Assembly (NCBI GenBank): GCA_964528025.1
Contig: CAZGOZ010000001.1
Location: 4,398 to 68,397 of the forward strand
Direction of reading: 5' to 3'
From: an uncultured Planctomycetia bacterium
GTDB taxonomy: Bacteria; Omnitrophota; Gorgyraeia; Tantalellales; Tantalellaceae
DNA length: 64,000 bases
Positions 17,636-37,931 of this stretch are shown here, piece by piece (the first letter of the stretch is position 1; every line of letters begins with the position of its first letter). The notes under the pieces were generated by a model. The model did no database searches. It saw only the letters and a list, made by a program, of their open reading frames with translations, and had not been told where the DNA came from. Both the position numbers and the translations under genes were made by a program.

Positions 17636-17643
17636 AGCCTTTG

Positions 17644-18105: not shown

Positions 18106-18291
18106 CTACCAACTTGCCTTTTTAACACCCGGGATATCACCGCGCGAAGCCAATTCCCGGAAACAGATACGGCATAATTTAAACCGCTTCAGATATCCCT
18201 TCTTTCTTCCGCAGATCTGGCATCTGGTGATGACTCTCGTTGAGAATTTTGGTTTTCTTTTTGATTTTTCTATAAGCGCTTTCTTAGCCAT
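18106..18291 (-). CDS. rpsN: 30S ribosomal protein S14 type Z (zinc-binding, 61 aa)
   Basis: [23 protein letters not shown]. Confidence 0.9.
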
Positions 18292-18428
18292 ATGATTTTC
18301 TTTCCCATTGCGACACTGAATGCACTGAATTTTGCAGAGAACACTGGATTCAGTGCCGTCTATCCCCTTCAGTATCCTCTGTGTTGCATTCTTCAGTGTC
18401 CTCTGTCTTTTTCTCAGTGTTCTCTGTG
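18292..18428. repeat. Family C leader element (cactgaat palindromes)
   Basis: cgacactgaatgcactgaattttgcagagaacactggattcagtgccgtctatccccttcagtatcctctgtgttgcattcttcagtgtcctctgt. Homologous to 29279-29339 and 37775-37931. Confidence 0.7.
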
Positions 18429-18995
18429 TTACCGCTTCTCAAAAGGCATTCCGAACCCCTCAAGCAACGCCTTCGATTCTTCTTTAGCACAGGCAGTCAT
18501 AACAAAACAGATATCCATACCGTGAGTTACCGGCACCTTGTCCAGCTCCAGCTCGGGGAATATCGTCTGTTCTTTTATCCCTAATGTATAATTTCCCTGC
18601 TGATCAAAAGATGTCACGGATACACCGCGAAAATCCCGTATTCTCGGAATAACAAAATTTATCAGCCGGTCCAAAAATTCATACATGCGAACCCTTCGCA
18701 ATGTTGTTTTATATCCAACGGGGGCTCCTATACGCACCTTAAAATTGGAAATCGCCTTTTTGGTTCTTCTCAGAGAAGGTTTCTGCCCGGTCAAAGACGC
18801 AATTTCATCTCTCAACGGCTCTACCAAATCTTTCTGCTGGGACATCTCGCCCATTCCTACGTTAACCACAATCTTTTCGAGACGCGGAACGTTCATTCTG
18901 TTCTTGTATCCGAATTTCTTCATCAACGCAGGAACAATATCCTTTTCGTATAAATCTTTAAGCCGTGCTGTGTTTGTTTTTTTATTATCTGTCAT
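18429..18995 (-). CDS. rplE: 50S ribosomal protein L5
   Basis: 188 aa. Confidence 0.9.
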
Positions 18996-18996
18996 T

Positions 18997-19308
18997 TTAT
19001 AACGCCTCTTTACATTTCTTGCAAAAACGGGTCTTACTGCCGTCCTTTAGTATGTCTTTGCCTGTCCTGGTGGGGCGGTTACAGCCCTTGCAGAGAATGG
19101 CCAGATTCGAAACATGAATAGAGGCCTCTCTATGCATGATACCGCCTTCCGAGTCCTGCTTCGTCTTTTTGAGGTGTTTTATCGCAAAATTCACCCCTTG
19201 CACGATAGCGCGCTTTTTTTCAGGGTTAATTCTCAACACTTTTCCGGTTTTTCCTTTATCTTTACCGGCCATAACTTTTACTGTATCGTTTTTTATTATA
19301 TGTCCCAT
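18997..19308 (-). CDS. rplX: 50S ribosomal protein L24 with C-terminal CxxC...CxxC zinc-ribbon-like tail
   Basis: KOW motif (VMAGKDKGKTGKV) and a tail CKGCNRPTRTG...RFCKKCKEAL. Confidence 0.85.
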   Translation of the reverse strand: MGHIIKNDTVKVMAGKDKGKTGKVLRINPEKKRAIVQGVNFAIKHLKKTKQDSEGGIMHREASIHVSNLAILCKGCNRPTRTGKDILKDGSKTRFCKKCKEAL

Positions 19309-19320
19309 AACATTCCTCGT

Positions 19321-19689
19321 TTAAATAACTTCCGGCGCCAGAGATACAATCTTCATGAATTTCTTCCCGCGAAGTTCGCGAGCGACCGGTCCAAACACGC
19401 GCGTTCCGCGCGGATTTCCGTCTTTATCAATTACTACTACGGCGTTGTGATCAAATTTAAGAACCGTCCCATCCTTGCGCAATATCGGATAGGCCGTTCG
19501 CACGACCACGGCGCGAACCACTTCGCCTTTTTTAACCTCCGCGGCGGGCGTAGACTCCTTGATATTACACGTAATCACGTCGCCTATCGTTGCCATGTAT
19601 TTTCCGGATCTCCCGATAACACCTATCATAGAGGCTTTTTTAGCGCCGCTGTTATCAGCAACATCCAACCTGCTGCCCATTATAATCAT
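19321..19689 (-). CDS. rplN: 50S ribosomal protein L14
   Basis: 122 aa. Confidence 0.9.
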
Positions 19690-19695
19690 AGCCGA

Positions 19696-19962
19696 TCAGC
19701 CTCTCTGCTTTTTTTCCAGAATTTCCACGAGGCGCCAGGCCTTGTTCTTGGAAATCGGACGCGTTTCGATTATCCGGACCATGTCCCCGGCTTTTGATCT
19801 ATTTTCCGCATCATGCGCCTTAACCTTCATACGCTGTTTTATGAATTTTCCGTATATGGGATGTCTCTTACGAGTTTCCCATCCAACCGTGATGCTCTTA
19901 TCCATGCTCGCGCTTATAACCGTGCCGGTTATTTCTTTTTTATTGGGTCTAGTGCCCTTCAC
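19696..19962 (-). CDS. rpsQ: 30S ribosomal protein S17
   Basis: 88 aa. Confidence 0.85.
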   Translation of the reverse strand: MKGTRPNKKEITGTVISASMDKSITVGWETRKRHPIYGKFIKQRMKVKAHDAENRSKAGDMVRIIETRPISKNKAWRLVEILEKKQRG

Positions 19963-20146
19963 TATTCTTCTCCTTCAAAATGGTGTAACATCTGGCTATA
20001 TCGCGCCTCAGGGAACAGAAACGGTTCGGTCTCTCTATCCTGCCGGTCGTAATCTCCGCCCTCAGTTTGAACAATTGCTCTTTTATATCCAAAAGCTTGT
20101 GTTCAACCTCGGGTACGGTCATGTTCCTTATTTCGCTCGCTTTCAA
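19949..20146 (-). CDS. rpmC: 50S ribosomal protein L29
   Basis: 65 aa. Confidence 0.8.
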
Positions 20147-20559
20147 GCCCGTCCTCCTCTTGATACAAATTTTGTCTTCATCGGAAGCTTATGCGCCGAT
20201 AACCGAAAGGCCTCCCTGGCCATGTCATGCGGAACACCTTCCACTTCAAAAATAATCCGCCCTTTTTTCACGGGGGCAACCCATCCAACGGGAGAGCCCT
20301 TCCCCTTGCCCATACGTGTTTCCGCGGCCTGTTTCGTTACGGGCTTATCGGGAAATACCCGAATCCACAACTTGCCGGCTCTTCCGGTCTCCCTCATGAG
20401 AGCCACTCTTGCCGCCTCTATCTGTTTGTCGGTTAACCATGCGGTTGCCAAAGCCTTGAGCCCGAATTCTCCAAAATTAAGTTTTGAAGACAAACTCGTG
20501 CCTTTGCGCCGGCCCCTCTGTTGTTTCCTGAATTTTACCCTCTTGGGCATTAAAGCCAT
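20143..20559 (-). CDS. rplP: 50S ribosomal protein L16
   Basis: [20 protein letters not shown]. The ORF continues upstream to 20658 through the family A repeat; start chosen at the internal Met. Confidence 0.85.
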
Positions 20560-20574
20560 AATGTCGCCCCTTAA

Positions 20575-20745
20575 ACAATAATCAAGATACAATAAAATAA
20601 ATGTCAAATGACAAAATTCAAAGCACAAAATAAGCACAAATAACAAAATCCAAAACACAAATAAAAGTTTTGTTATTTGAATTTAAGATTTTGGATTTAT
20701 TTTGGATTTTGTGCTTTGTCATTTGAATTTTGACGCGTTATCTTC
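20575..20745. repeat. Family A palindromic element (largest copy) between rpsC and rplP
   Basis: gtcaaatgacaaaattcaaagcacaaaataagcacaaataacaaaatccaaaacacaaataaaag / ttttgttatttgaatttaagattttggatttattttggattttgtgctttgtcatttgaattttgac. Confidence 0.75.
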
Positions 20746-20783
20746 CTTTTTTCACTCTTTTTTCCAGAACCTCAGTAACGCCT

Positions 20784-21467
20784 TCACCTTTGTTTCTTCT
20801 TTTTAACGTCCGTTTCTTCCGGCTCTACGGGAGCATCCAACTTGTCACCTTTGTAGATCCACACCTTCACCCCGATTATTCCGTATGTGGTGCGGGCTTC
20901 ACTGAACCCGTAATCTATGACGGCCCTTATTGTCTGTAGCGGGATCTTGCCCCACTTATAACCTTCAACTCTTGCTATTTCCGCGCCCCCCAGACGTCCG
21001 GAACACTTAATCTTTATGCCTTTCCCACCGGCGTCTTTGTGCGCCTGTATGGTTTTTTTCATCGCACGCCGGAAAGCGATCCTTTTCACGAGCTGCAGTG
21101 CGATATTATCAGAGACGATCTTCGCGTCCAGTCCGGGATTTGCCACCTCTTTGATATCAATAAAAAGTTTTGCCCGATCCCCTACGATATTCTGTACGGA
21201 TTCTTTAAGCAGCTCGATCTGAGCACCCTTCCGCCCTATCAGTATTCCCGGCCGTCCGGAAAAAATAGCAACACGCACGAGGTTACGCGTGCGCATTATA
21301 TCTACATGAGATATCAGAGCCGCGAACATCTCTTTTTCTATTAATTTGCGTATTCGCGTGTCCTGCAGCAGTTTGTCCGCGAACTCTTCTTTCGTGGCGT
21401 ACCAACGACTGTTCCAGTCACGTCCCGCTCCCAGACGAAAACTTATCGGATTGACCTTCTGCCCCAT
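20784..21467 (-). CDS. rpsC: 30S ribosomal protein S3
   Basis: 227 aa with a KH domain. Confidence 0.9.
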   Translation of the reverse strand: MGQKVNPISFRLGAGRDWNSRWYATKEEFADKLLQDTRIRKLIEKEMFAALISHVDIMRTRNLVRVAIFSGRPGILIGRKGAQIELLKESVQNIVGDRAKLFIDIKEVANPGLDAKIVSDNIALQLVKRIAFRRAMKKTIQAHKDAGGKGIKIKCSGRLGGAEIARVEGYKWGKIPLQTIRAVIDYGFSEARTTYGIIGVKVWIYKGDKLDAPVEPEETDVKKKKQR

Positions 21468-21468
21468 G

Positions 21469-21852
21469 CTATTTACTCCCTGACTTTATTTTTTTGTTTT
21501 TCTTAGCAGGCACAACTGCCTTATCCAGTTCAACCCGAATATGCGTTGTCCTGTGCCTTATAGGCGCGGCGCGTCCCATTGTCGCTGCTCTGAAACGTTT
21601 AAGCATGTAGGCGCCGTCTGCCATTATTGTTGAGATCATCACGTCTTTAGCAAGTAGTTTCTCCTGCCGCTTAAAATTTGCGTTGGCAAAAGCCGAGTCC
21701 AAGACCTTCCTTATAGGCACGCAGGCACTCTTCGGGGTATTATCCAGAATAGCTCTCGCCATTTCAATCGTTTTGCCCCTTACCAGGTCAACGACCAGTC
21801 TTGTCTTACGTGTCGATATCCTGACGTATCTGGCTTCCGCTTTTGCAATCAT
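21469..21852 (-). CDS. rplV: 50S ribosomal protein L22
   Basis: 127 aa. Confidence 0.85.
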   Translation of the reverse strand: MIAKAEARYVRISTRKTRLVVDLVRGKTIEMARAILDNTPKSACVPIRKVLDSAFANANFKRQEKLLAKDVMISTIMADGAYMLKRFRAATMGRAAPIRHRTTHIRVELDKAVVPAKKNKKIKSGSK

Positions 21853-22136
21853 TATGTTTTCTCCAATGAAACTTTCGTCGCTGCTCCGTGGCTGCGAAAC
21901 TTACGCGTCGCCGCGAACTCACCCAATTTATGACCTACCATATTCTCCGTTATAAACAGAGCGATGAAGGTCTTTCCGTTATGCACGGAAATTGTCAAAC
22001 CTACGAAATCAGGTAATACAACAGACCTTCTGGACCAGGTCTTTATCGGCTTCTTGCTGCCGGTTTCCGCCCTTTTTCGCACCTTTTTCAAGAGACTCTC
22101 GTCCACAAAAGGGCCTTTTTTGGTAGAACGCGACAT
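21852..22136 (-). CDS. rpsS: 30S ribosomal protein S19
   Basis: 94 aa. Confidence 0.9.
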
Positions 22137-22139
22137 ATC

Positions 22140-22964
22140 TTACTTCCTCCGTTTGATTATCTTACTGCTTGACGCTTTCTTCTTTTTCCGCGTCTTTAAA
22201 CCTTTGGTAATCTTACCCCACGGCGTAACCGGATGTCTTCCGCCGGAGGATTTTCCTTCACCGCCACCCATGGGGTGGTCAACCGGGTTTTTTACCACGG
22301 CTCTGGATTTCGGCCGTATTCCACGATGTCTTGATCTACCGGCTTTTCCTAAAGAGATATTTTCATGTTCGGCGTTTCCCACTTTTCCGATTGAAGCGTA
22401 ACATCCCTCGTTAACCAGCCGGACTTCCCCGCTCGGCATGCGCAGGTGTATGTTTTTTCCGTCCTTTGCGTCAACCATGGCGCCATTGCCCGCTGATCTG
22501 GCTATCTTCGCGCCGCAACCCGGTTCCATTTCAATACAATAAACTTCCGCCCCAAGAGGAACATTTTTGAGCGGCATTGAATTCCCTATTTCTATCTTCG
22601 CCGTGGGACCGCACTGAATTGTGCCGCCGACCTTGATCTGCGCAGGCGCGATTACATACATCAGTTGCCCATCCTCATACTTCACTAGCGCGATACGCGC
22701 CGAACGGTTCGGATCATACTCCACCGCCGCAACAACTCCCTGAATGCCTTTTTTCATATAACGAAAATCTACGAGACGATACCGTCTCTTGTGACCGCCC
22801 CCTATGCCTCTCGAGGTTATACGGCCACGATTATTTCTTCCGCCCGTTTTCCGCAGCGCTCGCGTGAGAGATCTTTCCGGACGTTTTTTTGTGATATCAC
22901 TAAAATCAGAAACGTTCCCGCCGCGGGTGCCGGGTGTCATTGCTTTATATTTTCTTATACCCAT
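22140..22964 (-). CDS. rplB: 50S ribosomal protein L2
   Basis: 274 aa. Confidence 0.9.
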   Translation of the reverse strand: MGIRKYKAMTPGTRGGNVSDFSDITKKRPERSLTRALRKTGGRNNRGRITSRGIGGGHKRRYRLVDFRYMKKGIQGVVAAVEYDPNRSARIALVKYEDGQLMYVIAPAQIKVGGTIQCGPTAKIEIGNSMPLKNVPLGAEVYCIEMEPGCGAKIARSAGNGAMVDAKDGKNIHLRMPSGEVRLVNEGCYASIGKVGNAEHENISLGKAGRSRHRGIRPKSRAVVKNPVDHPMGGGEGKSSGGRHPVTPWGKITKGLKTRKKKKASSSKIIKRRK

Positions 22965-22967
22965 AAG

Positions 22968-23246
22968 TTATGTTACCTCTATCGTGCTTCCGGATTTCAG
23001 CGTCACAATGGCCTTTTTCCACGAGGCCGTCATACCCTCGTGAAGCCTTACCCGTCTTCTTTTTCCTTTGATGTTCATCACGTGGACCTTATCCACTTTA
23101 ACGTTGTAAATCTCCTCCACAGCTTTTCTTATCTCCACCTTGTTGGATCGTTTATCAACCTTGAATAGGTGCTTGTTCTGCGAACCCATCCCTGACCCTT
23201 TTTCGGTCCGTAATATATTTTTTATGACATCGTGTGTCGTTCTCAT
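22968..23246 (-). CDS. rplW: 50S ribosomal protein L23
   Basis: 92 aa. Confidence 0.85.
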   Translation of the reverse strand: MRTTHDVIKNILRTEKGSGMGSQNKHLFKVDKRSNKVEIRKAVEEIYNVKVDKVHVMNIKGKRRRVRLHEGMTASWKKAIVTLKSGSTIEVT

Positions 23247-23902
23247 TTTAATTTTTCACCCAAGTTTTCAAGCGCCGTTTTTTCCACCAAAATACACCCG
23301 TTCAACAAAACATCTCTCACATTTATATTCTTTCCCTCTTTCAGGCTCACCCGTTTCAGGTTGCCTGAAGAACGTTTTACATCCTTGGTTATGGCCTCAA
23401 CCACAACAAGCACTTTTCCTTCCACCTTCAGATTATCAAGAATCGCCTTGAACGCACTGGTCTTGGGCTTATCCAGCTTGATTTCTACCACCGCTTTCAC
23501 CATATTTTCGGACAGTCTGGCGTTCAGACCGGATATCAACGCTTTTTTCAGCGCTTTTTTCGGCATGGAATACGAAAAATCACGCGGTCTCGGACCAAAT
23601 GCCACGCCGCCGTGACGCCAGACAGGATTTCTGGAGGACCCGACCCTGGCTCGACCGGTACCTTTCTGTTTCCATGGTTTTGCTCCGCCGCCCGAAACCT
23701 CGCTCCTCGTTTTAGACGAAGCAGTTCCTCGGCGGCAATTCGCTTCATACATCTTCTTCGCTTCATAAAGAAGCGTTTGATTAACACGACCGTCAAACAC
23801 CTCTTCATCCAGCTGTATTTTATCAACGGCCTTGCCATCCAGACCAAAAACATCCAGCCTTGTATTAAACTCTTTTATTTTCCGCTCTTTATTTCTTTTC
23901 AT
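23243..23902 (-). CDS. rplD: 50S ribosomal protein L4
   Basis: Start set at internal [12 protein letters not shown]. The longer ORF to 24085 would overlap rplC by about 200 nt. Confidence 0.8.
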   Translation of the reverse strand: MKRNKERKIKEFNTRLDVFGLDGKAVDKIQLDEEVFDGRVNQTLLYEAKKMYEANCRRGTASSKTRSEVSGGGAKPWKQKGTGRARVGSSRNPVWRHGGVAFGPRPRDFSYSMPKKALKKALISGLNARLSENMVKAVVEIKLDKPKTSAFKAILDNLKVEGKVLVVVEAITKDVKRSSGNLKRVSLKEGKNINVRDVLLNGCILVEKTALENLGEKLK

Positions 23903-24605
23903 CGTTCGGCTTTTCTGCTGTTTTTTCTTCTGTTTTTCCCTCGGCCTTTTCTTCTTTCTTCTCGCGCGCCGCAAGGGTTTTCTTTTTAGCGTACCGAAGA
24001 ATAAGATACGTGCCGTTCGCTCCGGGAATAGCGCCTTTAACCGCAATCGTGTTATTGGCGGCATCCGTCTCAACAATCTGGACATTCTGAATTGTAGTTC
24101 GCACGTTCCCCATATGACCCGGCATGCTTTGTCCTTTAAAAACGCGCGATGGATAAGAACTGGCGCCTATGGAACCCGGCGCGCGGTGCGACATTGATCC
24201 ATGCGACTCCGGTCCACCGTTCCAGTTGTGTCTTTTCATGCCACCCTGAAAACCTTTTCCCTTTGAAAGGCCGGTGATATCCAGGAAATCGCCTTTTTGA
24301 AAAATCCCGAGCGTTACCTCATCTCCGACTTTTACTTCCAAATCTTCGTCACACCTTATTTCCCGGACAAATCCCTTCGGTTTCAGATTACGGGCCTTGA
24401 GATCTTCTCTCTGGGGTTTTTTAAGACGTTTTTCCTTTACGTCTTCATACCCCATACAAACGGCATTATATCCGTCTTTCTTCGGGGTCTTTACTGCCTG
24501 CACGGAACAGGGGCCCGCTTTCACGACCGTAACAGGCGTTCTTCTGCCGTCTTCCCCGAATATCTGTGTCATGCCTATTTTTTTTCCAAGTATTCCCGGA
24601 ACCAT
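23889..24605 (-). CDS. rplC: 50S ribosomal protein L3 with Lys/Glu-rich C-terminal tail
   Basis: [16 protein letters not shown]. Confidence 0.9.
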
Positions 24606-24624
24606 TCAATTACCCCACTATTTT

Positions 24625-24745
24625 AAGTACAAATATCTTCTTAAAATTCAAATGACAAAGCTCAAAATTCAAAATAAATCCAAAATCTTAAATTCCAATG
24701 CCCAAACTTTTATTTTGTGCTTTGAATTTTGACATTTGTCATTAT
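24625..24745. repeat. Family A palindromic element between rpsJ and rplC
   Basis: aattcaaatgacaaagctcaaaattcaaaataaatccaaaat ... ttttgtgctttgaattttgacatttgtcatt. Confidence 0.7.
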
Positions 24746-25059
24746 TTTATCTCTACATCTACACCGGCCGGAAGATCCAGCTTGCGCAAAGAGTCTATCG
24801 TCCTTGCTGTGGAATCCACGATATCCAGAAGCCTTTTATGCGTTTTGAGTTCAAACTGCTCCCGTGATTTTTTGTCCACATTCGGCGACCTTAAAACAGT
24901 ATAAAGCTCACGTCTGGTCGGAATCGGCACCGGACCCACCACGGTTGCACCGGTTTTCTTGACCGTCTCCACTATTTCTGCCATTGACACGTCAAGAAGC
25001 TTATGGTCAAACGACTTCAAGCGTAAACGTATCCTTGCTGTTTTTATTTTCTTAGCCAT
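24742..25059 (-). CDS. rpsJ: 30S ribosomal protein S10
   Basis: 105 aa; [20 protein letters not shown]. Confidence 0.9.
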
Positions 25060-25077
25060 TTTATCCTCGCTCCGTTA

Positions 25078-26274: not shown

Positions 26275-26334
26275 TTTTTGCCTCCTTAAAAAGTCGTTAT
26301 ATGCCGTCTCTCTTATACTTACACTATAAAAACA

Positions 26335-28407: not shown

Positions 28408-28419
28408 AATCTTCCGTTC

Positions 28420-28890: not shown

Positions 28891-28906
28891 TTTTTATCCT
28901 TTTCTG

Positions 28907-29278
28907 TTACTTCGGCCTCTTGGTGCCGTATTTAGATCTGCCTCTTCTCCGGGATTCCACGCCCGAAGCATCCAATCTTCCCCTGATTATGTGATACCTT
29001 ACGCCCGGTAAATCTTTTACCCTGCCGCCCCGTATCGTCACGATGGAGTGCTCCTGAAGATTGTGCCCCTCTCCGGGAATATACGCCGTGACCTCAAGGT
29101 TGTTCGTCAGACGCACTCTCGCGATTTTTCTCAGGGCCGAATTAGGTTTTTTCGGTGTGCGTGTCTTCACCTGAAGACAAACCCCTCTGCGCTGCGGACA
29201 CCCGACGAGCGCCGGCGACTTTGTTTTCGTCCTGATAGCTTTTCTTCCCTTACGTATCAATTGGTTTATTGTCGGCAT
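28907..29278 (-). CDS. rpsL: 30S ribosomal protein S12
   Basis: [14 protein letters not shown] family C element supplies AGGAG 7 nt upstream of the start. Confidence 0.9.
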
Positions 29279-29339
29279 TTATTGCTCCTTTGCAACACTG
29301 AGAGCTCTGAATTTTCTGAGAACACTGAATTCAGTGCTC
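29279..29339. repeat. Family C leader element (short copy) between rpoC and rpsL
   Basis: cctttgcaacactgagagctctgaattttctgagaacactgaattcagtgctctcag, a near-perfect 28 bp palindrome centred on GAATTC. Confidence 0.7.
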
Positions 29340-32300
29340 TCAGTTCTTTTCAGTGTCCTCAGTGTTACCTTCTTCTACTTTTTTTATTTCTTCTTTTAAT
29401 ACCTCACGGACCAGCGAGATTTTTCTGTGCTCTTCATATCCCGTTCCCGCTGGTATCAAATGCCCCATGATGATATTCTCTTTCAGTCCCGTCAAATTGT
29501 CCGTTTTTCCGGCTGCGGCCGCTTCCGTCAAAACCCTCGTGGTTTCCTGAAAACTCGCGGCCGAGATAAAACTTTCCGTAGTGAGCGAAGCCTTCGTTAT
29601 GCCCTGAAGAACGGGCTCGGCAGACGCGGGTTTTTTCTTCTTCTTTATCATTCTCTCGTTCTCTTTTTTAAAAATAGTCTTCTCCACTTTATCACCGTCG
29701 AGAAAAATGGTATCCCCGGAGTCCGTTATTTTGACGCTCCTGAGCATCTGTCGGATAATCGTTTCAATATGCTTGTCGTTTATCTGTACGCCCTGCAAAC
29801 GGTATACTTCCTGAATCTCATTAAGAAGATATTCCTGGAGTTTTTTCTCTCCGGAAACCCGCAAGATATCCTGCGGTACCACAGGTCCGTCAACAAGCTG
29901 TTCCCCCGCTGCAACGACATCCCCGCGATATACATTGAGATGCTTACCGTGCGGAATAACATATTCTTTTCTCATCCCCGCTTCACTTTCAACGATTATC
30001 CTTTTCTCACCCTTTTTCGATTCGCCAAACTCAACCGTTCCCGCTATCTCACTGATAATGGAAGGATCTTTCGGTTTTCTGGCCTCAAAAAGTTCAGCCA
30101 CACGCGGTAGACCGCCTGTGATATCCTTTGTCTTTGTCAACACCCTGTGCATCTTGGCAAGTACGTCACCGGCTTTGACCTCTTCCTTGTCCTTGACCGC
30201 AATATGAGCATTGACCGGAAGAGGATAAATCGCCTCAACATCACCCTTTTTGTTCAGGATAAGAAGCTGCGGGTGATAGTCGCCTTTCTGATCGATCACG
30301 ACTCTGTTTTTCACGCCCGTTGCCTCATCCGTCTCAATCTTCATCGTAATATCTTTTTTGATGTCCTCATACTGAACCTTACCGTTAACTTCCGTCAATA
30401 TCGGAATCGTATACGGATCCCACTCGGCGTATTTCATCTTTTTCTTTATGCCCGCGCCGTCCGCATAAAAAACAGAGGACCCTTGCGGAATTATCTGCCG
30501 CTCTATCTCGCGGCCGTCAATCTCGTCGATGCTTATCTGGCCGCTTCTGTTAAGAACAACGAACACGCCCTTCTCCCTGCTCTCAACGACTTTAAGGTTG
30601 TGATATTTTACAACGCCCGGTTCCTTGTTCTTGAAAAAGGACTGCTCTATTATCCTGCTGGCGGTTCCTCCGATGTGAAACGTCCTCATCGTAAGCTGAG
30701 TGCCCGGTTCCCCGATGGACTGCGCCGCAATTATACCAACGGCTTCCCCGGCATCCGCGATCTTTCCGGTAGCGAGATTCCGTCCGTAACATTTTGCGCA
30801 AACTCCCTGTTCCGCTTCACACGTCAGAACGCTTCTGATACGCACGCTTTCCAGCATGGGTATTTTTTCTATTTCCTCGGCCTGTTCATCGCTTATAACT
30901 TCGCCTGATTTAATAACGCTATTCCCTGTGAGGGGATCCGCAATGTTATCCAGCCCGACTCTGCCGGAAATACGTTCCGCGAGGGAAGCAACCACTTCAT
31001 CGCCTTCAATTATGGCCGAGACGGTGATACCGTTGAGTGTTCCGCAGTCAGGCTCACGAATTATAACATCCTGCGCAACGTCAACCAGCCTTCTGGTAAG
31101 ATACCCGGAATCCGCTGTTTTCAACGCCGTGTCAGCCAGTCCTTTACGCGCGCCGTGAGTGGAAATAAAATATTCCAACACTGTCAGGCCTTCTCTAAAA
31201 TTCGCGGTAATGGGAGTTTCAATAATCTCGCCGGAGGGCTTGGCCATGAGTCCCCTCATCCCCGCAAGCTGACGAATCTGCTGCCGTGATCCTCTGGCCC
31301 CGGAATCGGCCATCATGAAAACAGGGTTGAAACTGTCAAGATGGCGAAATACCAGGGCTGAAACGTCTTCGGTGACATGCGTCCATGTGTCAATGATCTT
31401 GTTATATCTTTCACCGTCGGTTATAAGCCCTCTCTGGTATTGACTATGGACCTTATCCACCTCGACTTGCGCAAGAGCCAGTTTTTTAGCCTTTTCCGCG
31501 GGAACACTGAGATCGGAAACAGCCATGGAAGCCCCTGAAAGCGTGGATTCTTCAAACCCAAGCCTCTTGATTTCATCCAGCAACTCAACTGTCGCCGCGT
31601 GCCCCTTTAACCTATAACAATCGGAAATAACCTGACTCACGGCTTTCTTATTCATCGGTTCATTGTAAAAGGGCATCCCTTCGGGAAGGATATCGTTGAA
31701 GATAGCTCTTCCGACGGTGGTCTCTATGAGTTCCCCCTTCACACGGAGTTTTATCTTGGCAAACTTATCAACCTCTTCGTCCTGATAAGCCATTATGACT
31801 TCTTCTTTATCCGCAAATATCTTTCCTTCCCCCTTGGCCTTCATCTTCATTTTGGTGAGATAATACACGCCCAGAACTATATCCTGTGAAGGAGTTGCTA
31901 TCGGACGGCCGTTCGCGGGCGAAAAGATATTATTAGCGGCATTCATTATAAGCCGGGCTTCCATCTGTGCTTCCATAGACAGAGGTAAATGTACCGCCAT
32001 TTGGTCGCCGTCAAAGTCCGCGTTAAACGCGGCGCAGACCAGCGGATGAACGCGTATAGCTTTACCTTCAACCAGTTTGGGCTGAAACGCCTGTATTCCG
32101 AGACGATGCAGGGTCGGAGCCCGGTTTAGCATTACGGGATGGTCTCTGATAACGTCATCAAGTATGTCCCATACCTCGGGGTTTTCCTGCTGGACCATTT
32201 TTTTCGCGCTTTTTATAGTATGGACAAACCCTTTTTCTCTCAGTTTTCTGATAATGAACGGCTGATACAGTTCCAGCGCCATGACCTTGGGTAGTCCGCA

Positions 32301-33395
32301 TTCATTTAGTTTAAGTTCCGGTCCAATCACGATAACGCTACGTCCGGAATAATCCACGCGTTTTCCGAGCAGGTTCTGCCGGAAACGGCCCTGTTTGCCT
32401 TTAAGCATATCCGCAAGCGACTTTAACGGCCGTCCGCCGGATCCCACGACTTCGCGCCCATGCCTGCCATTATCAAACAAGGCATCAACGGCTTCCTGCA
32501 ACATCCGTTTCTCGTTCCTCACAATAACTTCCGGGGCTTTCAGCTCAAGAAGCTTTTTAAGCCTGTTGTTCCTGTTGATCACTCTCCGATAAAGATCGTT
32601 AAGATCGCTTGTCGCAAATCTGCCGCCTTCCAATGGAACAAGCGGCCGAAGATCGGGAGGAATAACCGGAACAACATCAAGTATCATCCATTCCGGTTTA
32701 TTACCACTCTTTCGGAATGTCTCAATGACCTTCAACCTTTTCATCAACCTTTTTTTAGTATTCAAATCTTTTTTCTCGCTCATTTTCGCGATTAATTCCG
32801 CGGATATGGCGTTAAGATCCATCTCTTTCAATAATTCGCGAACACCATCAGCCCCCATCATGGCTTTGAAGCCGTTTCCATATTCTTCTTTCGCCTTGAT
32901 GTACTGATCTTCTGTCAGCATCTCTTTCTTTTTAAGAGGCGTCTCGCCGGGATCCGTCACCACATACTGCTCATAGTAAAGAACCCTCTCCATGTCCCTC
33001 ATTTTCATGTCAAGCATATTGGACATGCGGGAAGGAATGGCCTTAAAAAACCACACGTGTGAAACGGGCGCGGCCAGTTTGATACAGCCCATTCTTTCGC
33101 GGCGAACATTTGATTTGATTACTTCAACGCCGCAACGGTCACAGACAATGCCCTTATGCTTTATTCTCTTGTATTTGCCGCAGTTACATTCAAAATCCTT
33201 GGTAGGACCGAATATGCGCTCGCAAAAAAGCCCGTCTCTTTCAGGTTTCAATGTCCGGTAATTGATCGTTTCCGGCTTCTTTACCTCAAATAGCATGCTC
33301 CTCGAGCCAATCTTGCGCGTGGCCCAAGCCTTGATTTTTTCAGGAGAAGCTATCTGTATCTTGACCTTGTCAAATCTGTTTACCTTGCGCAACAT
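29340..33395 (-). CDS. rpoC: DNA-directed RNA polymerase beta' subunit
   Basis: 1351 aa; NADFDGD catalytic motif. Confidence 0.95.
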
Positions 33396-33400
33396 ATTTT

Positions 33401-36400
33401 TTACACTCCTTGGGAATATTTTTCGCTTTGCTCAAAATTGACATCAAGACCCAAACTCTGCAGTTCCTTGACAAGAACATTGAACGACTCCGGGGTGCTC
33501 GGTTCCAGCATGTTTTCCCCCTTGACTATGGTCTCGTATATCTTTGTGCGGCCAACCACGTCATCGCTCTTGACCGTGAGAAGCTCCTGAAGTGTATACG
33601 CGGCGCCGTACGCCTCAAGCGCCCATACTTCCATTTCCCCAAACCTCTGCCCGCCGAACTGGGCTTTCCCTCCAAGGGGCTGCTGGGTAACCAGCGAATA
33701 TGGCCCTATGGATCTGGCATGCATCTTATCATCGGCCAGATGCGCCAGTTTCATCATGTATATATATCCGACCGTAACATGCTGATCGAACGGTTTCCCG
33801 GTAAATCCGTCGGAAAGCGCCGTCTTACCCGTTTCCGGCAGTTTAGCTTCTTTCATTATATCGCGTATGTCTTTTTCATTCGCGCCGTCAAAAACGGGCG
33901 AGGTAAACTTCCTATTCAGCACTTTTGCCGCCCACCCAAGCTGTGTCTCCAGCAACTGTCCGATATTCATTCGGCTCGGAACCCCGAGCGGATTCAGAAC
34001 GATATCCAGAGGCGTGCCATCCGGAAGATACGGCATATCTTCTTCCGGCACTATTTTGGCAATAACCCCCTTGTTACCGTGTCTTCCTGCCATTTTATCG
34101 CCGGCCTGAAGTTTTTTCTTACTCGCGACAAAAACGGTTATCCGACGCAAAACCCCGGGCGGAAGTTCATCGCCGTGTTTTATCCTGTCCAGATCCCTTT
34201 CCTTCTCTATCACTGTCTGCTCAATCTGGCTGTTGGCAGTCGCAACGATATTGTTAATCCTTATCTGGAGTTTTTCGTCGTTATCCACGCAAAGGTCATC
34301 CAGTATCGCCTGCTTAAACTTTGGAAGGTCTTTCTCTGTTATCCGTTTCCCTGCTTTTATTAGGATCTTTCCCGTTTTAAAGTCTTCAATTCCGTTTACC
34401 AGTTTGCTCCCGACCAAACGCTGAAAAATTCTCTCGGCCTTTTTGAGCTCCAGCTGTTCAATAATGTTACGATAGCCTTCTTCAACAATCTTTCTCTCCT
34501 CGGAATCGCTTCTCCGCTGTTCCCTTGTCAGAGTTTTTCTGTTCTTGCGCGAGAGTTCCTTGACATCAACAACTATGCCGTTAATCCCCGAAGGGACCCG
34601 AAGCGACACATCCTTAACATCACCGGCTTTCTCCCCGAAAATCGCGCGCAGCAGTTTTTCTTCCGGTGAAAGCTCGGTCTCGGATTTTGGAGCGACCTTT
34701 CCTACCAATATGCTTCCCGCGACCACTTCCGCGCCAATGCAAATAATACCGTTCTCATCCAGATTTTTGAGAGTTTCCTCGCCGACGTTGGGAATGTCTC
34801 CCGTCACTTCTTCGTTGCCGAGTCTTGTATCGCGCGCTTCCAGCTCAAATCGGTGTATGTGAACGGATGTAAACGCGTCTTCCTTCAGCAGATTCTCGTT
34901 TATGAGAATCGCGTCTTCAAAATTGTATCCCCGCCATGACATGAAACCGACCAGAACGTTCTTTCCGAGCGCAAGTTCACCGTTATCCGTTGAAATGCCG
35001 TCAGCAAGGAGATCCCCTGCTTTGACAGTTTCTCCGAGTTTCACGACCGGTCTCTGATTAACGCTTGTTCTGGCATTGGTCCTCTCAAATTTCTTGAGGG
35101 GATATTTTTCTCCGGACACCACTATCTCTTTTCCGTCAATCCTGGTAACATTTCCGCCCTTTTGCGCAATGACCAGCGCGCCGGAATCTTTCGCCGTGCG
35201 ATATTCCAGTCCCGTTCCGACAAGCGGAGCCTCGGGAAACAGGAGCGGAACAGCCTGTCTCTGCATGTTGGACCCCATGAGCGCTCTGTTTGCGTCGTCA
35301 TGTTCCAGAAAAGGTATGAGCCCCGCGCAGATACTCACGAGTTGAAGCGGGGAAACATCCATATACTGAACGTCAGCGGCTGAAGCAAGAATAAAATCGT
35401 CCTTAAACCGACAGAATACCTTATCTTCTTTAAAATGTCCCCGTCCGTCGAGCGGCGAGTTCGCCTGGGCGATAATGTATTTATCCTCTATATCCGCGGA
35501 AAGATACTCTACGGTATCCAGAACCTTTTTTTTCTCTACCTTGCGATAGGGCGTAACCAAAAACCCGAATTCATCAACTCCGGAATAGGTGCTGAGCGAA
35601 TTGATAAGGCCGATATTAGGACCTTCCGGGGTCTCAATCGGGCATAACCTGCCGTAATGCGAATAGTGAACGTCACGAACTTCAAAACCGGCGCGTTCAC
35701 GGTTAAGACCGCCCGGACCAAGCGCGCTCAATCTTCTGAGATGCGTCAGCTCGGCAAGCGGGTTCGTCTGGTCCATGAACTGAGATAATCTCCCCCTTGC
35801 AAAAAAATCATGAATCACGCTCGTGATGAGTTTCGTGTTGACGATATTATGCGGCATGACTTCGCTCATCTCGTAAACGCTCATTCTCTCCCTGGCCACT
35901 CGTTCAACACGGGCCATGCTTATGCGTATCTGATTGGAAAGCTGCTCACCTACGCATCTTATACGTCTGTTGCCAAGATGATCAATATCATCTATGCTTC
36001 TTTTTCCCGACTTTATTTCAAGAAGGGCTTTGATTGCCTGAACCAGCGTTTCGCCGTCAAGCAGTTGAGCATCAAGCGCGCGGTTCATCCCGAGTTTGCG
36101 GTTTATCATGCGCATGCCGACATCGGTGAGATTGTACCGTCTCTTGTCAAAAAACATCTGAGCAAGCAAATCCTTGGCGGCCGCAAGGGTCGGAGGATCA
36201 CCCGGACGAAGCTTGCGGTAAACATCAAGATATGCTTCTTCTCTGGTTTTTGTTCCGTCGTGCTCCAGCGTGTTTATTATCTCTTTGGGGATTGACTGCA
36301 ATAATTTGACTTTTCGGACCTTGTTTCCCCACATCCGTTTCGCGATAGAAGGCGTAATCTGTTCCATCTGTTGGGCCAGTATGGAGGACGAATTCTCGTC

Positions 36401-37150
36401 AACAATATCTTCAGCAAGAACGCGGTCTATCAGCTCTTCGCACTGTTTCTCGCGCGTTAACAGCACTTCTTCCACGCCGCCGAACGCCTTGAGAATCTCT
36501 CCGTCGCTGGACAGACCGAAAATCCTCAGAAATGTCGTGGCCAGAAATTTTCTCTTGCGATCAATATATACATAAAGCAAATCATTCTTATCAAACAGAA
36601 ACTCTATCCACGCGCCTCTGTCAGGGATAAGCCGAGCCGAATAAATCGGTTTGGTGCCGGGCGAAGTGCTTTCCTCAAACGATATCCCAGGTGACCGGTG
36701 GAGTTGACTAACGACGACCCGTTCGTCACCGTTGATAATATAGGTGCCAACATCTGTCATGAGGGGAATCTCCCCCATGTAGACTTCCTGCTCTTTTATC
36801 TCGTTTTCCAGCCGCAGGCGCAGTTTTACCCGAAGAGGCGCCGCATACGTGAGAGAACGGTGCTTGCACTCCTCCGTATTATATTTTGGACGAGCTATAT
36901 CGTAATACAGATATTCAAGCCGATACACGCCGTTCTGGCTCGTGATTGGAAACACTTCACGAAAAAGACATTCCAATCCGCGATTTGCCCTTTTTGTCTT
37001 CGGCACAAAACGCTGCAGGAACTCCGCGTACGAGTCAACCTGGATCTTGAGCAGATTGGGAATATCATAAACCTGTTTCAGCCTGGTGTAACTTTTTCGC
37101 GCGACTTTAACAGTCATTCTGCACTCCGTCCTCTTTTTTTGTGTTACCAA
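33401..37150 (-). CDS. rpoB: DNA-directed RNA polymerase beta subunit
   Basis: 1249 aa. Confidence 0.95.
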
Positions 37151-37237
37151 CGTTCCGGAGACCCCATAAAAAGGTCAAAGGCCCAAGGTTCAAGAAAAAC
37201 CTTTAACCTTTAACCTCTCGGAACTCCCAAAGTATAT

Positions 37238-37774
37238 TTACTTCAGCTCGACTTTTGCACCGACAGCTTCAAGCTGTTTCTTCATTTTCTCGGCTTCGTC
37301 TTTCAGCAAACCTTCTTTGATCTCTTTCGGAGCCGCTTCTACCAGGTCTTTTGCTTCTTTAAGCCCAAGATTCGTCAAAGCCCTGACCTCCTTGATAACA
37401 TTGATCTTTTTCGGACCAATCTCGGCAAGAACAACAGTGAAGACATTCTTTTCTTCCGCGCCAGCGGCTGCCGCTCCTGCGCCTGCTGCCCCGGCGACTG
37501 CCATGGCCGCTACCGGAGCGGCGGCACTGACATCAAATCTGTCCTCAATGGCCTTTACAAGATCGGAAAGCTCAAGAACACTCATTTCTTCTATATTCTT
37601 GATAAGCCCTTCCATCTTGGCTGAGAGCTTCACCTTGGGTTTTTTCACCTCGGCTTTTTTTTCGGCTACAACGGTCTCGGTTTTTTCCGGGGCCGGTGTT
37701 TTTTCAGCAGCCGGCGCCTTTTCGGGTGCCTCAGCGGCTTTTGCCTGTTCTTTTTCTTTCTTTTCCTCTACCAT
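37238..37774 (-). CDS. rplL: 50S ribosomal protein L7/L12 with an approximately 53 aa Lys/Ala/Pro/Glu-rich N-terminal extension
   Basis: The canonical N-terminus [29 protein letters not shown] is preceded in frame by [19 protein letters not shown].... A strong SD (AGGAGG, 5 nt) sits before the ATG at 37774. Confidence 0.8.
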
Positions 37775-37931
37775 TTTTCCTCCTTTGCAACACTGAATAT
37801 ACTGAATTTTGCGCCACTGAATACACTGAATTTGCAGAGAACACTGAATTCAGTGCCCTCTATCCCCTTCAGTGTCCTCTGTGTTGCATTCTTCTGTGTC
37901 CTCTGTGTTTCTATTGTTGACGTAACAAAAA
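37775..37931. repeat. Family C leader element (longest copy) between rplJ and rplL
   Basis: cctttgcaacactgaatatactgaattttgcgccactgaatacactgaatttgcagagaacactgaattcagtgccctctatccccttcagtgtcctctgtgttgcattcttctgtgtcctctgtg. Confidence 0.75.

What the first reader, a model, noticed from the sequence alone, without database searches (positions are those of the whole stretch)
18292..37931. Family C leader elements (cactgaat palindromes) directly upstream of rpsN, rpsL and rplL that also supply their Shine-Dalgarno sequences
Three homologous 60-155 bp elements sit between cistrons inside the ribosomal operons, at 18292-18428, 29279-29339 and 37775-37931. Each contains a near-perfect palindrome around GAATTC (gagaacactgaattcagtgctctc) and a conserved 3' block tatccccttcagtgtcctctgtgttgcattctt. 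Read on the coding strand, each ends in cagtgttgcaaAGGAG(G) 5-7 nt before the ATG. A shared structured leader on three ribosomal protein mRNAs suggests a common translational control RNA motif or a binding site for one regulator.
Basis: seen in the sequence. Interest (0 to 1): 0.6.

Follow-up and report, generated by a model that had tools for sequence, protein, structure and literature searches.

The report
Hairpin repeats inserted before ribosome-binding sites
Three copies of a young, lineage-specific hairpin-forming repeat sit between genes in the ribosomal operons of an uncultured Omnitrophota bacterium, each pointing the same way as the genes and ending a few bases before the next gene's ribosome-binding region; it is a dispersed repeat family found before many kinds of genes, not a conserved ribosomal-protein control element.

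Summary
The three elements are real and homologous (covariance-model scores 83-97 bits; CACTGAAT occurs 13 times against 1.5 expected). Each contains an ~80-nt unit of two nested helices, 20 bp and 12 bp, ending 10-16 nt before the start codon. The Shine-Dalgarno sequence lies just 3' of the stem and is predicted to be unpaired.

The family is not specific to ribosomal proteins. Further copies precede spoVG, rpmE, gpmA, ribH and nusB in the same species or its sister MAG. All eight independent sites are in sense orientation and abut the ribosome-binding site, including two sites in 300-400-nt intergenic regions.

The family is young and unstable. The nearest other lineages (77-83% protein identity) have 14-25-nt spacers with their own SD at four of four orthologous sites, although one of them carries three unrelated hairpins in a ~150-nt rplJ|rplL gap. 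The SD is therefore native to the gene, not supplied by the element. Arm number differs between strains, E1 and E3 resemble each other more than E3 resembles its orthologue, and one copy has been overwritten by a different repeat. There is no Rfam match, no covariation and no promoter or terminator signal.

Best reading: an orientation-locked REP/BOX/MITE-like hairpin repeat that is co-transcribed and probably acts on RNA processing, stability or ribosome-binding-site insulation. Modest interest.

The parts
18308..18388 (-). E1 canonical unit: 5' arm, central palindrome (18337-18360 on the + strand) and 3' arm ending ...GTCGCAA
   Evidence: CM R1 scores 83.3 bits sense against 39.9 antisense. 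Sequence. Alignment A2.
18389..18428 (-). E1 extra 5' half-element (cacagagaacactgag...gacagaggacactgaag). It starts directly after the rplE stop codon.
   Evidence: It aligns to the extra 5' arm of E3.
18292..18307 (-). Spacer between E1 and the rpsN start codon (tgggaaagaaaatcat), with only a weak SD-like GGGAAAG
   Evidence: Predicted unpaired probability is 0.89.
29290..29369 (-). E2 canonical unit. Its 5' arm (29340-29369) is read as the last 10 codons of rpoC (…GNTEDTEKN*).
   Evidence: CM scores 96.7 bits sense against 58.8 antisense. RpoC tails compared. The sister MAG lacks 27 nt of the 3' arm.
29285..29289 (-). Native Shine-Dalgarno AGGAG of rpsL, immediately 3' of E2
   Evidence: The same AAGGAG is present at this site in relatives without the element.
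37809..37888 (-). E3 inner canonical unit (palindrome 37837-37860 on the + strand)
   Evidence: CM scores 92.7 bits sense against 48.9 antisense. It shares the GGGGATAGA spacer with E1, 94% identity to E1 over 80 nt (D5; alignment).
37889..37910 (-). E3 extra outer 5' arm (aaacacagaggacacagaagaa)
   Evidence: Absent from the orthologous element of MAG JBDRNI01, as a 24-nt indel. It pairs with the outer 3' arm in the MFE fold.
37785..37808 (-). E3 extra outer 3' arm (aaattcagtatattcagtgttgcaa)
   Evidence: The matching 24-nt indel against the MAG. Fold.
37779..37784 (-). Native Shine-Dalgarno AGGAGG of rplL, starting directly after the GCAA end of the element (about 4 nt after the last base pair of the hairpin)
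   Evidence: AGGAGG is present at the empty sites of relatives. Predicted unpaired probability is 0.83.

Best explanation
Family C is a young, lineage-restricted family of modular, nested-palindrome interspersed repeats. It is of the same general kind as REP/BIME, BOX, ERIC and Correia/MITE elements, and occurs in an uncultured Candidatus Omnitrophota bacterium.

SHOWN. The basic unit is about 80 nt: TGCAACACAGAGGACACTGAA - spacer - GAGrGCACTGAATTCAGTGyTCTC - spacer - TTCAGTGTTyTCAGTGTTGCAA. Extra copies of either arm can be added. Copies lie between a stop codon (or the last codons) of an upstream gene and the pre-existing Shine-Dalgarno sequence of the next gene. They are always in the sense orientation, and the 3' end (…GCAA) lies 0-3 nt from the ribosome-binding region.

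INFERRED. The element is co-transcribed with the operon. On the mRNA it folds into a long two-helix stem-loop (20 + 12 bp, -30 to -48 kcal/mol) whose base lies about 4 nt upstream of a free SD. I think it most likely acts in cis as an intercistronic RNA stem-loop. In that role it would be a double-stranded RNase (RNase III-type) processing or stability determinant, and a structural insulator that keeps the downstream ribosome-binding site unpaired. The effect would be to uncouple or raise expression of the downstream cistron (rplL after rplJ, rpsL after rpoC, ribH after ribBA, spoVG after ispE).

Spread is by copy-and-paste or gene conversion anchored at the SD side. This would explain the exact 3' junction, the variable 5' junction and the fixed orientation. 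It is not a conserved ribosomal-protein autoregulatory leader.
For: Family and structure. CM hits of 83-99 bits occur at 10 loci, and the sense score always exceeds the antisense score by about 31-52 bits. 87% of cells are paired in the two-helix model, against 30-50% when partners are slid. MFE folds reproduce the model with the SD left unpaired. SD-region unpaired probabilities are 0.89, 0.56 and 0.83, against about 0.57 for the other 30 genes.

Not specific to r-proteins. Copies occur at ispE|spoVG, rho…|rpmE, the divergent region before gpmA, and ribBA|ribH and ribH|nusB.

Orientation and position. 8 of 8 independent sites are sense, which has binomial p about 0.004. The GCAA-to-start distance is 10-16 nt, including in the 401-nt and roughly 300-nt intergenic regions of L075 and L021.

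Youth and instability. The nearest other lineages have spacers of 14-25 nt with their own SD at the four orthologous sites, except that one of the three lineages examined at rplJ|rplL has a ~150-nt gap holding unrelated hairpins. E3 has 2+2 arms in the window but 1+1 in the sister MAG. E2 differs by 27 nt between them. The 25-nt 3' arm occurs x3 or x6 in different samples. E1 and E3 are mutually closer than E3 is to its orthologue. The MAG's ribH|nusB copy is gutted by another repeat family.

Other hairpin families. Unrelated hairpin families occupy other intercistronic gaps here, and also the rplJ|rplL gap of another lineage.

Strand asymmetry. The sense strand folds better than the antisense in 8 of 11 copies. 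Sense G-U cells number 33, against 15 A·C cells.
Against: There are no transcript data, so co-transcription, processing and any effect on expression are inferred. No compensatory covariation is seen; the observed values do not exceed the shuffles. The G-U excess traces back to at most two ancestral positions duplicated within the unit. In 3 of 11 copies the antisense strand folds better. Relatives do without the element, so any function is dispensable. Only 8-9 sites are known, and most were found through a sequence pattern in public contigs rather than a whole-genome census. No mobilising enzyme was identified, and no target-site duplication could be recognised. rpsN and nusB are not obvious candidates for elevated expression.
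Confidence: 0.5

Rival explanations
1. Purely selfish or neutral miniature element (MITE/REP-like) with no effect on expression. The fixed orientation and SD adjacency would reflect only the insertion or copying mechanism, together with survival of insertions that spare the stop codon and the SD in a compact genome.
For: Terminal inverted arms of about 20 bp are present. The element is absent from orthologous sites in relatives. Arm number varies, and there is inter-locus homogenisation and overwriting by another repeat. Original spacers are only 14-25 nt, so any tolerated insertion must lie close to the SD. There is no covariation.
Against: 8 of 8 sites are in sense orientation. In two long intergenic regions (about 300 and 401 nt) the element still ends 0-1 nt from the SD, where a neutral insertion could lie anywhere. 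No transposase or autonomous partner was seen in the Pfam scan of ten ORFs from window 42-61 kb. No target-site duplication was recognisable.
Confidence: 0.25
2. One reading: a common translational operator. A single RNA-binding (or DNA-binding) regulator would recognise the repeated CACUGAA/UUCAGUG motifs or the hairpin, and co-regulate all genes that carry the element.
For: The sequence is conserved, not only the structure: 46 of 81 alignment columns are invariant, and the same heptamer recurs 4-6 times per element. Copies have a fixed sense orientation and lie at the edge of the ribosome-binding site at every copy. This is the geometry of known translational operators, according to established knowledge of thrS and phage coat-protein operators. 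TAACTGA repeats upstream of start codons in Beggiatoaceae were interpreted in a similar way (PMC4679880).
Against: The downstream gene set is heterogeneous: r-proteins, riboflavin synthesis, nusB, gpmA and spoVG. The element is absent at the same genes in sister lineages. The number of motifs varies between strains of one species, x3 against x6. One copy was destroyed by another repeat in the sister MAG while the gene stayed intact. High sequence identity is expected anyway for recent copies. No candidate regulator was identified.
Confidence: 0.15
3. DNA-level element: a palindromic operator array or recombination site. Examples would be an integron attC-like hairpin, or an IS200/IS605-derived palindrome-associated element acting on single-stranded DNA.
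For: The core is a perfect 14-bp palindrome, CACTGAATTCAGTG, and one copy has the symmetric variant CACTGATATCAGTG. Nested inverted repeats are able to form cruciforms or ssDNA hairpins. Orientation-locked intergenic hairpins are typical of attC arrays, according to established knowledge.
Against: The ends (ATGCAAC … GTTGCAA) do not fit the attC R''/R' consensus RYYYAAC/GTTRRRY, as read from the sequence. Gene order is the conserved rplKAJL-rpoBC-str-S10-spc synteny, not a cassette array. For an IS200/IS605-type element the conserved flank (the complement of the SD) would place the active strand on the transcription-template strand. Since the coding strand is the G-rich one, that is the leading-strand template, which is the opposite of that family's known preference (inference). 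No promoter-like hexamers lie in or next to the elements. No integrase or transposase lies nearby.
Confidence: 0.05

Closest known systems
BOX elements of Streptococcus pneumoniae (modular boxA-boxB(n)-boxC interspersed repeats)
   Same: Both are modular, with a variable number of internal or arm modules between copies and strains. The ends are complementary and fold into a long stem-loop. Both lie in intergenic regions next to genes and are co-transcribed. No coding capacity. The BOX properties are from established knowledge; the properties of this family are.
   Different: The sequence has no evident relationship to BOX, although this was not tested by alignment. Here the modules are inverted arrays of one CACTGAA-containing unit around a perfect palindrome. 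All known copies are sense-oriented and abut the SD, which is not a described property of BOX.
Correia/NEMIS, ERIC/IRU and other bacterial MITE-like palindromic repeats
   Same: Both are imperfect palindromes of 80-160 nt with terminal inverted repeats, dispersed in transcribed intergenic DNA and present or absent between related genomes. Both are expected to form RNA hairpins that RNase III can cut and that alter the stability of neighbouring cistrons. This last point is established knowledge for Correia elements.
   Different: No target-site duplication was recognised. No orientation randomness is seen, with 8 of 8 copies sense. No promoter-like hexamers were found, and an IHF site was not looked for. 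The arms multiply in tandem.
REP/BIME extragenic palindromes
   Same: Both lie in intercistronic positions inside operons, form hairpins and are species-specific. True REP-like GC hairpins co-occur in this window at 17548-17643.
   Different: Family C units are about 80 nt and 38-47% GC, with two nested helices. REP elements are 20-40-nt GC-rich stems usually lying at the 3' side of genes. No RAYT association is known for family C.
Phage T7 intercistronic RNase III sites (a functional analogue, not a family)
   Same: Both are long, interrupted double-stranded stems placed between cistrons, just upstream of the next ribosome-binding site. In T7, processing leaves protective hairpins and can stimulate downstream translation (established knowledge). 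The geometry of the predicted folds matches.
   Different: Cleavage was not tested here. These are chromosomal, repeated and evolutionarily unstable.
TAACTGA direct heptamer repeats upstream of start codons in Beggiatoaceae, Cyanobacteria and Bacteroidetes (MacGregor 2015, PMC4679880)
   Same: Both are arrays of an ACTGA-containing short motif, in forward orientation within a few nucleotides of start codons, including inside ribosomal-protein operons. Both are lineage-restricted, have unknown function and have been proposed to act in translational control.
   Different: The TAACTGA repeats are tandem direct heptamers that do not form hairpins and usually replace a recognisable SD. Family C is an inverted arrangement of 18-25-nt units forming a long hairpin, and it keeps a canonical SD.
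Ribosomal-protein autoregulatory leaders (Rfam r-protein leader families, e.g. the L10 leader)
   Same: Both are structured RNA in r-protein operons near a ribosome-binding site.
   Different: There is no Rfam match at the gathering threshold or at E<=1. The same element is shared by unrelated genes. It is not conserved in sister lineages. It lies between rplJ and rplL, whereas the E. coli L10 leader lies upstream of rplJ (established knowledge).

Membership tests
Ribosomal-protein autoregulatory leader RNAs (Rfam) | Match to a curated covariance model | tested here: not met
   At the gathering threshold only 5 tRNAs were found in the window. At E<=1 over 18000-38200 there were only chance miRNA or snoRNA-like hits, with E 0.18-0.83 and scores far below gathering.
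Ribosomal-protein autoregulatory leader RNAs (Rfam) | Conservation at the orthologous position across related genomes, with covariation | tested here: not met
   The rplJ|rplL gap is 20 nt (L139) and 14 nt (L156), and holds unrelated hairpins in L153. The rpoC|rpsL gap is 25, 23 and 18 nt. No covariation is seen above the shuffles.
Ribosomal-protein autoregulatory leader RNAs (Rfam) | Specific to the operon of the protein that binds it | tested here: not met
   The same element precedes spoVG, rpmE, gpmA, ribH and nusB.
MITE | Terminal inverted repeats | tested here: met
   The outer arms GCAACAC(A/T)GAGGACACTGAA and TTCAGTGTTYTCAGTGTTGC give 20 pairs, with 85.5% of cells paired.
MITE | Target-site duplication flanking each copy | tested here: inconclusive
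   Filled and empty sites could only be compared with relatives at 77-83% protein identity. The flanks read AAT|…|AA(A/G), and no clear duplication is visible.
MITE | Many dispersed copies, with presence/absence between related genomes | tested here: met
   There are 8 independent sites in one species cluster, plus a divergent copy in L119. Copies are absent at four of four orthologous sites in the nearest other lineages.
MITE | Autonomous partner IS with the same termini, or a transposase in the genome | not testable with these tools
No transposase domain was found among the ten ORFs from window 42-61 kb that were scanned against Pfam.
MITE | Insertion in either orientation relative to neighbouring genes | tested here: not met
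   All 8 sites are sense. The CM sense score exceeds the antisense score by about 31-52 bits at each site.
REP/BIME | Short (20-40 nt) GC-rich imperfect palindrome | tested here: not met
   The unit is 80 nt and 38-47% GC, with two nested helices.
REP/BIME | Location in transcribed intergenic regions within or at the end of operons | tested here: met
   At least six sites lie between co-directional genes of conserved operons.
BOX-type modular repeats | Variable number of tandem internal modules between copies and strains | tested here: met
   The 25-nt 3' arm occurs x3 (L146) or x6 (L147, L148). E3 has 2+2 arms against 1+1 in the MAG.
BOX-type modular repeats | Sequence homology to pneumococcal boxA/B/C | not tested
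The phyla are unrelated, so homology is not expected.
Integron attC sites | R''/R' core sites RYYYAAC … GTTRRRY, in cassette arrays next to intI | tested here: not met
   The ends are ATGCAAC … GTTGCAA, matching 6 of 7 and 5 of 7 positions as read from A2. The flanking genes keep the universal r-protein and rib operon synteny.
TAACTGA upstream repeats (PMC4679880) | Tandem direct repeats of the heptamer TAACTGA | tested here: not met
   The units are 18-25 nt and arranged as inverted arrays. The heptamer here is CACTGAA.
TAACTGA upstream repeats (PMC4679880) | Forward orientation within a few nt of start codons, including inside r-protein operons | tested here: met
   The 3' end lies 8-16 nt from the start codon at every site. 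The description in the paper was read.
RNase III processing stem-loops (functional class) | About 20 bp or more of interrupted double-stranded RNA | tested here: met
   Predicted 20 + 12 bp helices separated by a 5x5-nt internal loop, at -30 to -48 kcal/mol.
RNase III processing stem-loops (functional class) | Cleavage in vivo or in vitro | not testable with these tools
   This needs transcript-end mapping or enzyme assays.

The most novel reading that the evidence does not exclude
Family C could be a new kind of orientation-locked, ribosome-binding-site-anchored mobile RNA module. It would be a hairpin cassette that is copied specifically to the position immediately 5' of Shine-Dalgarno sequences, by SD-targeted insertion or SD-anchored template switching. 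Once there, it would reprogramme translation or processing of the downstream cistron, giving a lineage a fast way to retune expression ratios inside otherwise frozen operons (rplJ:rplL, ribBA:ribH, rpoC:rpsL). A variant of this reading is that the repeated CACUGAA motifs recruit one RNA-binding protein, making the copies a newly born post-transcriptional regulon.
Probability: 0.15. Interest if true: 0.65.

Novelty: new variant of a known kind. Interest (0 to 1): 0.35.

Why it matters
If the orientation lock and SD adjacency hold genome-wide, this would be a clear natural case of an interspersed repeat that lands at one defined position of the translation-initiation region. It would bear on how intercistronic expression ratios evolve in conserved operons. 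It could also supply a compact natural 'hairpin + RBS' insulator part. On a practical level, the result warns against reading repeated structured spacers in r-protein operons of candidate phyla as conserved regulatory leaders. In this clade several unrelated hairpin repeat families colonise the same gaps and turn over between strains. They also break assemblies, extend ORFs (the rpoC and ispE tails) and confuse gene calling (rpsN uncalled, nusB start miscalled).

Tried and rejected
1. Rfam at the gathering threshold and at E<=1 found nothing relevant.

2. The sigma-70 promoter and intrinsic-terminator scan of 18200-38100 found no site inside or flanking the elements, so an internal promoter or attenuator is not supported.

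3. The genome-contig scan with the 19-mer core returned mostly Pseudomonas single hits. Model R1 finds nothing in them, so they are unrelated.

4. The metagenome scan returned 98 loci. Only L050, L075, L094 and L123 (plus divergent L119) belong to the family. The many Ga0058701/Ga0268247 arrays and the L046/L079 group share only the palindrome, score 25-49 bits and show no strand preference.

5. The viral-contig scan found no family member.

6. A protein search with a concatenated six-frame translation of the element, intended to find ORFs that run into copies elsewhere, gave no hit at E<=1. That search was wasted.

7. The look-up of the 61-aa S14 found it is not on record. The look-up of L14 returned only the same strain. 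The rplE|rpsN site therefore could not be compared with the sister MAG.

8. Covariation analysis was uninformative because the copies are too similar.

9. Strand asymmetry tests (G-U against A·C cells, and sense against antisense MFE) gave only a weak, non-independent lean towards the sense strand.

10. Resemblances recalled from memory (NrdR box ACACT…AGTGT, CodY box, LexA boxes, attC cores, IS200/IS605 target rule) were considered and set aside. Either the inner positions or cores do not fit, or the gene context is wrong. None was tested with a model.

11. The Pfam scan of ten ORFs from window 42-61 kb found no transposase or integrase.

12. Extending the window by 10 kb found no further copy.
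Full report
**Observation**

All genes in the region lie on the minus strand in the universal order secE-nusG-rplKAJL-rpoBC-rpsLG-fusA-tuf-S10-spc. The three elements fill the gaps rplE|rpsN (18292-18428), rpoC|rpsL (29279-29339) and rplJ|rplL (37775-37931).

- The octamer CACTGAAT occurs 13 times in the window against 1.47 expected.
- The repeat finder groups the three loci, at 94% identity for E1/E3 and 70% for E2.
- A covariance model built later scores them at 83-97 bits.

- E2 extends about 30 nt into the 3' end of rpoC.
- The long 'conserved block' is shared only by E1 and E3.
- E1 does not end in AGGAG.
- The SD is not supplied by the element (see 'Evolutionary behaviour').

**Organism**

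Exact-protein look-ups place the window in several public metagenome assemblies. The nearest named relatives are NCBI MAGs labelled Candidatus Omnitrophota. One of them, GCA_043811335.1 (JBDRNI01), is a sister genome with 96-97% identity in L7/L12 and RibH.

**Anatomy**

On the coding strand, ten copies from the window, the sister MAG and public contigs align without difficulty. The unit is about 80 nt and has these segments in order:

- a 20-nt 5' arm, GCAACAC(A/T)GAGGACACTGAA
- a 5-nt spacer
- a 28-nt central palindrome, GAGrGCACTGAATTCAGTGyTCTC
- a 5-nt spacer
- a 20-nt 3' arm, TTCAGTGTTyTCAGTGTTGC, followed by AA and then the SD

The arms are themselves paralogues of the two halves of the central palindrome. 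The whole unit is thus an inverted array of one CACTGAA-containing unit.

In the two-helix model (20 + 12 bp), 87% of cells pair, against 30-50% when partners are slid. MFE folds of individual copies reproduce the model at -28 to -48 kcal/mol with z-scores of -2.5 to -7.6. They leave the SD single-stranded about 4 nt 3' of the stem. SD accessibility is 0.89, 0.56 and 0.83 for the three window genes, against about 0.57 on average for the other genes. That sample is small.

**Where else the element occurs**

A genome-collection scan and a metagenome scan with strand-symmetric patterns, followed by the covariance model over all fetched loci, gave further copies:

- between ispE and spoVG (L050)
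- upstream of rpmE, in a 401-nt gap after rho (L075)
- upstream of gpmA, in a divergent region of about 300 nt (L021 and L123)
- on both sides of ribH, at ribBA|ribH and ribH|nusB (L094, L146-L150)

A divergent copy lies between a phosphoesterase gene and dgt in a 41%-GC organism (L119).

All eight independent sites are in sense orientation. The sense score exceeds the antisense score by about 31-52 bits at each, and the 3' end lies 10-16 nt from the start codon. No antisense or non-leader copy was found in the window, in 10 kb beyond it, or in about 50 kb of other contigs of the species. The downstream gene set, however, is clearly not confined to ribosomal proteins.

**Evolutionary behaviour**

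The next-closest lineages are at 77-83% identity in L7/L12 and 78% in RibH. They keep the same gene order but have short spacers carrying their own SD:

| Site | Spacer in relatives |
|---|---|
| rplJ\|rplL | 20 and 14 nt |
| rpoC\|rpsL | 25, 23 and 18 nt |
| ribBA\|ribH | 16 nt |
| ribH\|nusB | 21 nt |

The SD and the SD-to-ATG spacer of filled and empty sites correspond. One example is aAGGAcaaaatATG against aAGGAaaatattATG at nusB; AAGGAGG at ribH is another. The SD is therefore native, and the element lies immediately 5' of it.

The 5' junction is variable. It falls directly after the stop codon (E1, both ribH sites), 21 nt after it (E3), or inside the last codons of the upstream gene. In that last case the new C-terminal tails NTEDTEKN* (RpoC) and NTEVTEKDRRH* (IspE) are read from the 5' arm.

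Within the species cluster the element is unstable:

- E3 has one extra arm on each side relative to the sister MAG, seen as two 24-nt indels.
- E2 has 27 nt that the MAG lacks.
- The 25-nt 3' arm before nusB occurs three or six times in different samples.
- E1 and E3 share a private spacer (GGGGATAGA) and an extra arm. They are closer to each other than E3 is to its orthologue, which indicates recent inter-locus copying or conversion.
- In the MAG, the nusB copy retains only its two ends around an unrelated AT-rich nested palindrome.

Other hairpin repeat families (AT-rich 'caaat' palindromes, REP-like GC hairpins) occupy other intercistronic gaps of the same operons. A different Omnitrophota lineage has three unrelated hairpins in its rplJ|rplL gap.

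**Tests of RNA-level selection**

- There is no covariation above shuffles.
- G-U cells on the sense strand outnumber A·C cells 33 to 15. These derive from at most two ancestral positions duplicated inside the unit.
- The sense strand folds better in 8 of 11 copies, by a few kcal/mol.

These results lean towards the sense strand but are weak.

**Other signals**

There is no Rfam family and no promoter- or terminator-like site in the elements. No transposase or integrase domain was found among the ten ORFs from window 42-61 kb that were scanned against Pfam. No phage copies were found.

**Interpretation**

The identity part is well supported. This is a young, lineage-restricted, modular palindromic interspersed repeat of the REP/BOX/ERIC/Correia kind. 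It is not a conserved ribosomal-protein leader.

Two features set it apart from the textbook families. Every known copy is sense-oriented (p about 0.004 for 8 of 8). Every copy also ends at the SD, including in two long intergenic regions where a neutral insertion could sit anywhere. Short ancestral spacers explain SD adjacency inside operons. They do not explain it at rpmE or gpmA, and they do not explain the orientation.

The asymmetry between the junctions (exact 3', ragged 5') suggests copying or insertion anchored on the SD side. This is an inference.

Mechanistically, I consider an RNA role most likely: a co-transcribed 32-bp interrupted stem placed directly 5' of a free SD. That is the geometry of phage T7 RNase III sites and of 5' stabiliser or insulator hairpins. 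Four of the six intercistronic sites mark a step from a low-demand to a high-demand product: rplJ to rplL, rpoC to rpsL, ribBA to ribH, and ispE to spoVG. This also is inference, and no expression data were available.

The rival explanations are:

- A purely selfish element whose orientation reflects only its mechanism of spread.
The closest published parallel is the TAACTGA repeat arrays upstream of start codons in Beggiatoaceae (PMC4679880).
- DNA-level palindrome functions (attC-like, IS200/IS605-derived, or transcription-factor operator). These fit the ends, the synteny and the strand logic poorly.

**Verdict**

The regulatory-leader interpretation is only partly supported. The finding is a new, somewhat unusual variant of a known class of bacterial repeats and is of modest interest. 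A whole-genome census of orientation and position, transcript-end mapping in the source metagenomes, and simple reporter assays would settle whether it is merely a tolerated parasite or an RBS-anchored expression module.

Noticed in passing
window 24606-24741, 15107-15270, 15736-15973, 20659-20783, 11848-11999: A second family, or families, of AT-rich 'caaat/tttg' nested palindromes fills other intercistronic gaps of the S10/spc/alpha operons (for example rpsJ|rplC and rplO|secY). They fold into roughly 90-110-nt hairpins of -28 to -31 kcal/mol, but end about 35 nt before the start codon rather than at the SD.
   Followed up: partly
window 17548-17643; also 3221-3259, 44778-44812, 52376-52486: REP-like GC-rich hairpins (GGATCCCCGCGGAAGCGGGGATGACA type). 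Two inverted copies between rpsH and rplF fold together at -45.5 kcal/mol, z -7.6.
   Followed up: partly
L150 6655-6925 (MAG JBDRNI01, ribH|nusB gap): Only the two ends of the family-C element survive (atgcaacacagagaacac … tcagttttcagggttacaaagg). The middle is replaced by an element of about 220 nt from a different AT-rich nested-palindrome family. This shows repeat families overwriting each other in the same spacer.
   Followed up: partly
L153 4060-4213 (another Omnitrophota lineage, rplJ|rplL gap): Three unrelated perfect hairpins occupy the same rplJ|rplL spacer just upstream of the SD. Hairpin colonisation of this gap seems recurrent in the phylum, with lineage-specific sequences.
   Followed up: no
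window 37616-37774 (5' third of rplL): L7/L12 carries an N-terminal Lys/Glu/Ala/Pro-rich extension of about 50 aa ([10 protein letters not shown]…[12 protein letters not shown]). Its ends are conserved in many Omnitrophota homologues, while NCBI annotation starts at the internal MEG.
   Followed up: partly
window 29340-29369; L050 3473-3510: The C-terminal tails of RpoC (…GNTEDTEKN*) and IspE (…NTEVTEKDRRH*) are translated from the 5' arm of the repeat. Relatives end in unrelated tails, acidic in two lineages (…EETEE*, …EESEE*) and lysine-rich in a third (…KGKKKK*). Repeat insertion has therefore remodelled protein C-termini.
   Followed up: partly
window 18106-18291: The 61-aa zinc-type S14 gene (rpsN) downstream of E1 is not called in any public assembly of this organism. 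The exact-protein look-up is empty, and gene tables show a gap between L5 and S8.
   Followed up: partly
window 60371-60527: About three and a half tandem copies of a 43-nt unit, each containing the perfect palindrome TGGTAGGTCACCCTAAAGGGTGACCTAC, lie between queH-like and epimerase genes.
   Followed up: no
window 25078-26274 and 40707-41903: tuf is duplicated, and the repeat finder shows 100% identity over a 300-nt stretch (25047-25346 = 40676-40975). Public contigs of this organism break at these copies.
   Followed up: no
L045, L051, L053, L056, L061, L067, L072, L077, L086-L090, L093, L095, L099, L100, L104, L110, L112, L113, L115, L116, L122, L124, L128, L132 (Ga0058701 / Ga0268247 contigs): A high-copy repeat in another metagenome organism (41-50% GC) is built from many CACTGAATTCAGTG, CACTGAAAACAGTG and CACTGACAATTG motifs. 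It is often at contig ends and terminates in ctcggactcggg. It shares the 14-nt palindrome with family C but not its architecture (25-39 bits, no strand preference).
   Followed up: partly
L119 1680-1750: A divergent family-C-like copy (about 50 bits, strand ambiguous to the model) in a 41%-GC organism. It runs from the stop codon of a YfcE-like phosphoesterase gene to 8 nt before the start of dgt, so relatives of the family exist outside the species cluster.
   Followed up: partly
L146 6732-6856 vs L147 10466-10590+ / L148: The gene caller extended nusB by 25 codons into the 6-copy version of the repeat (185 aa against 160 aa). This is an example of repeat-induced start-site miscalling.
   Followed up: no
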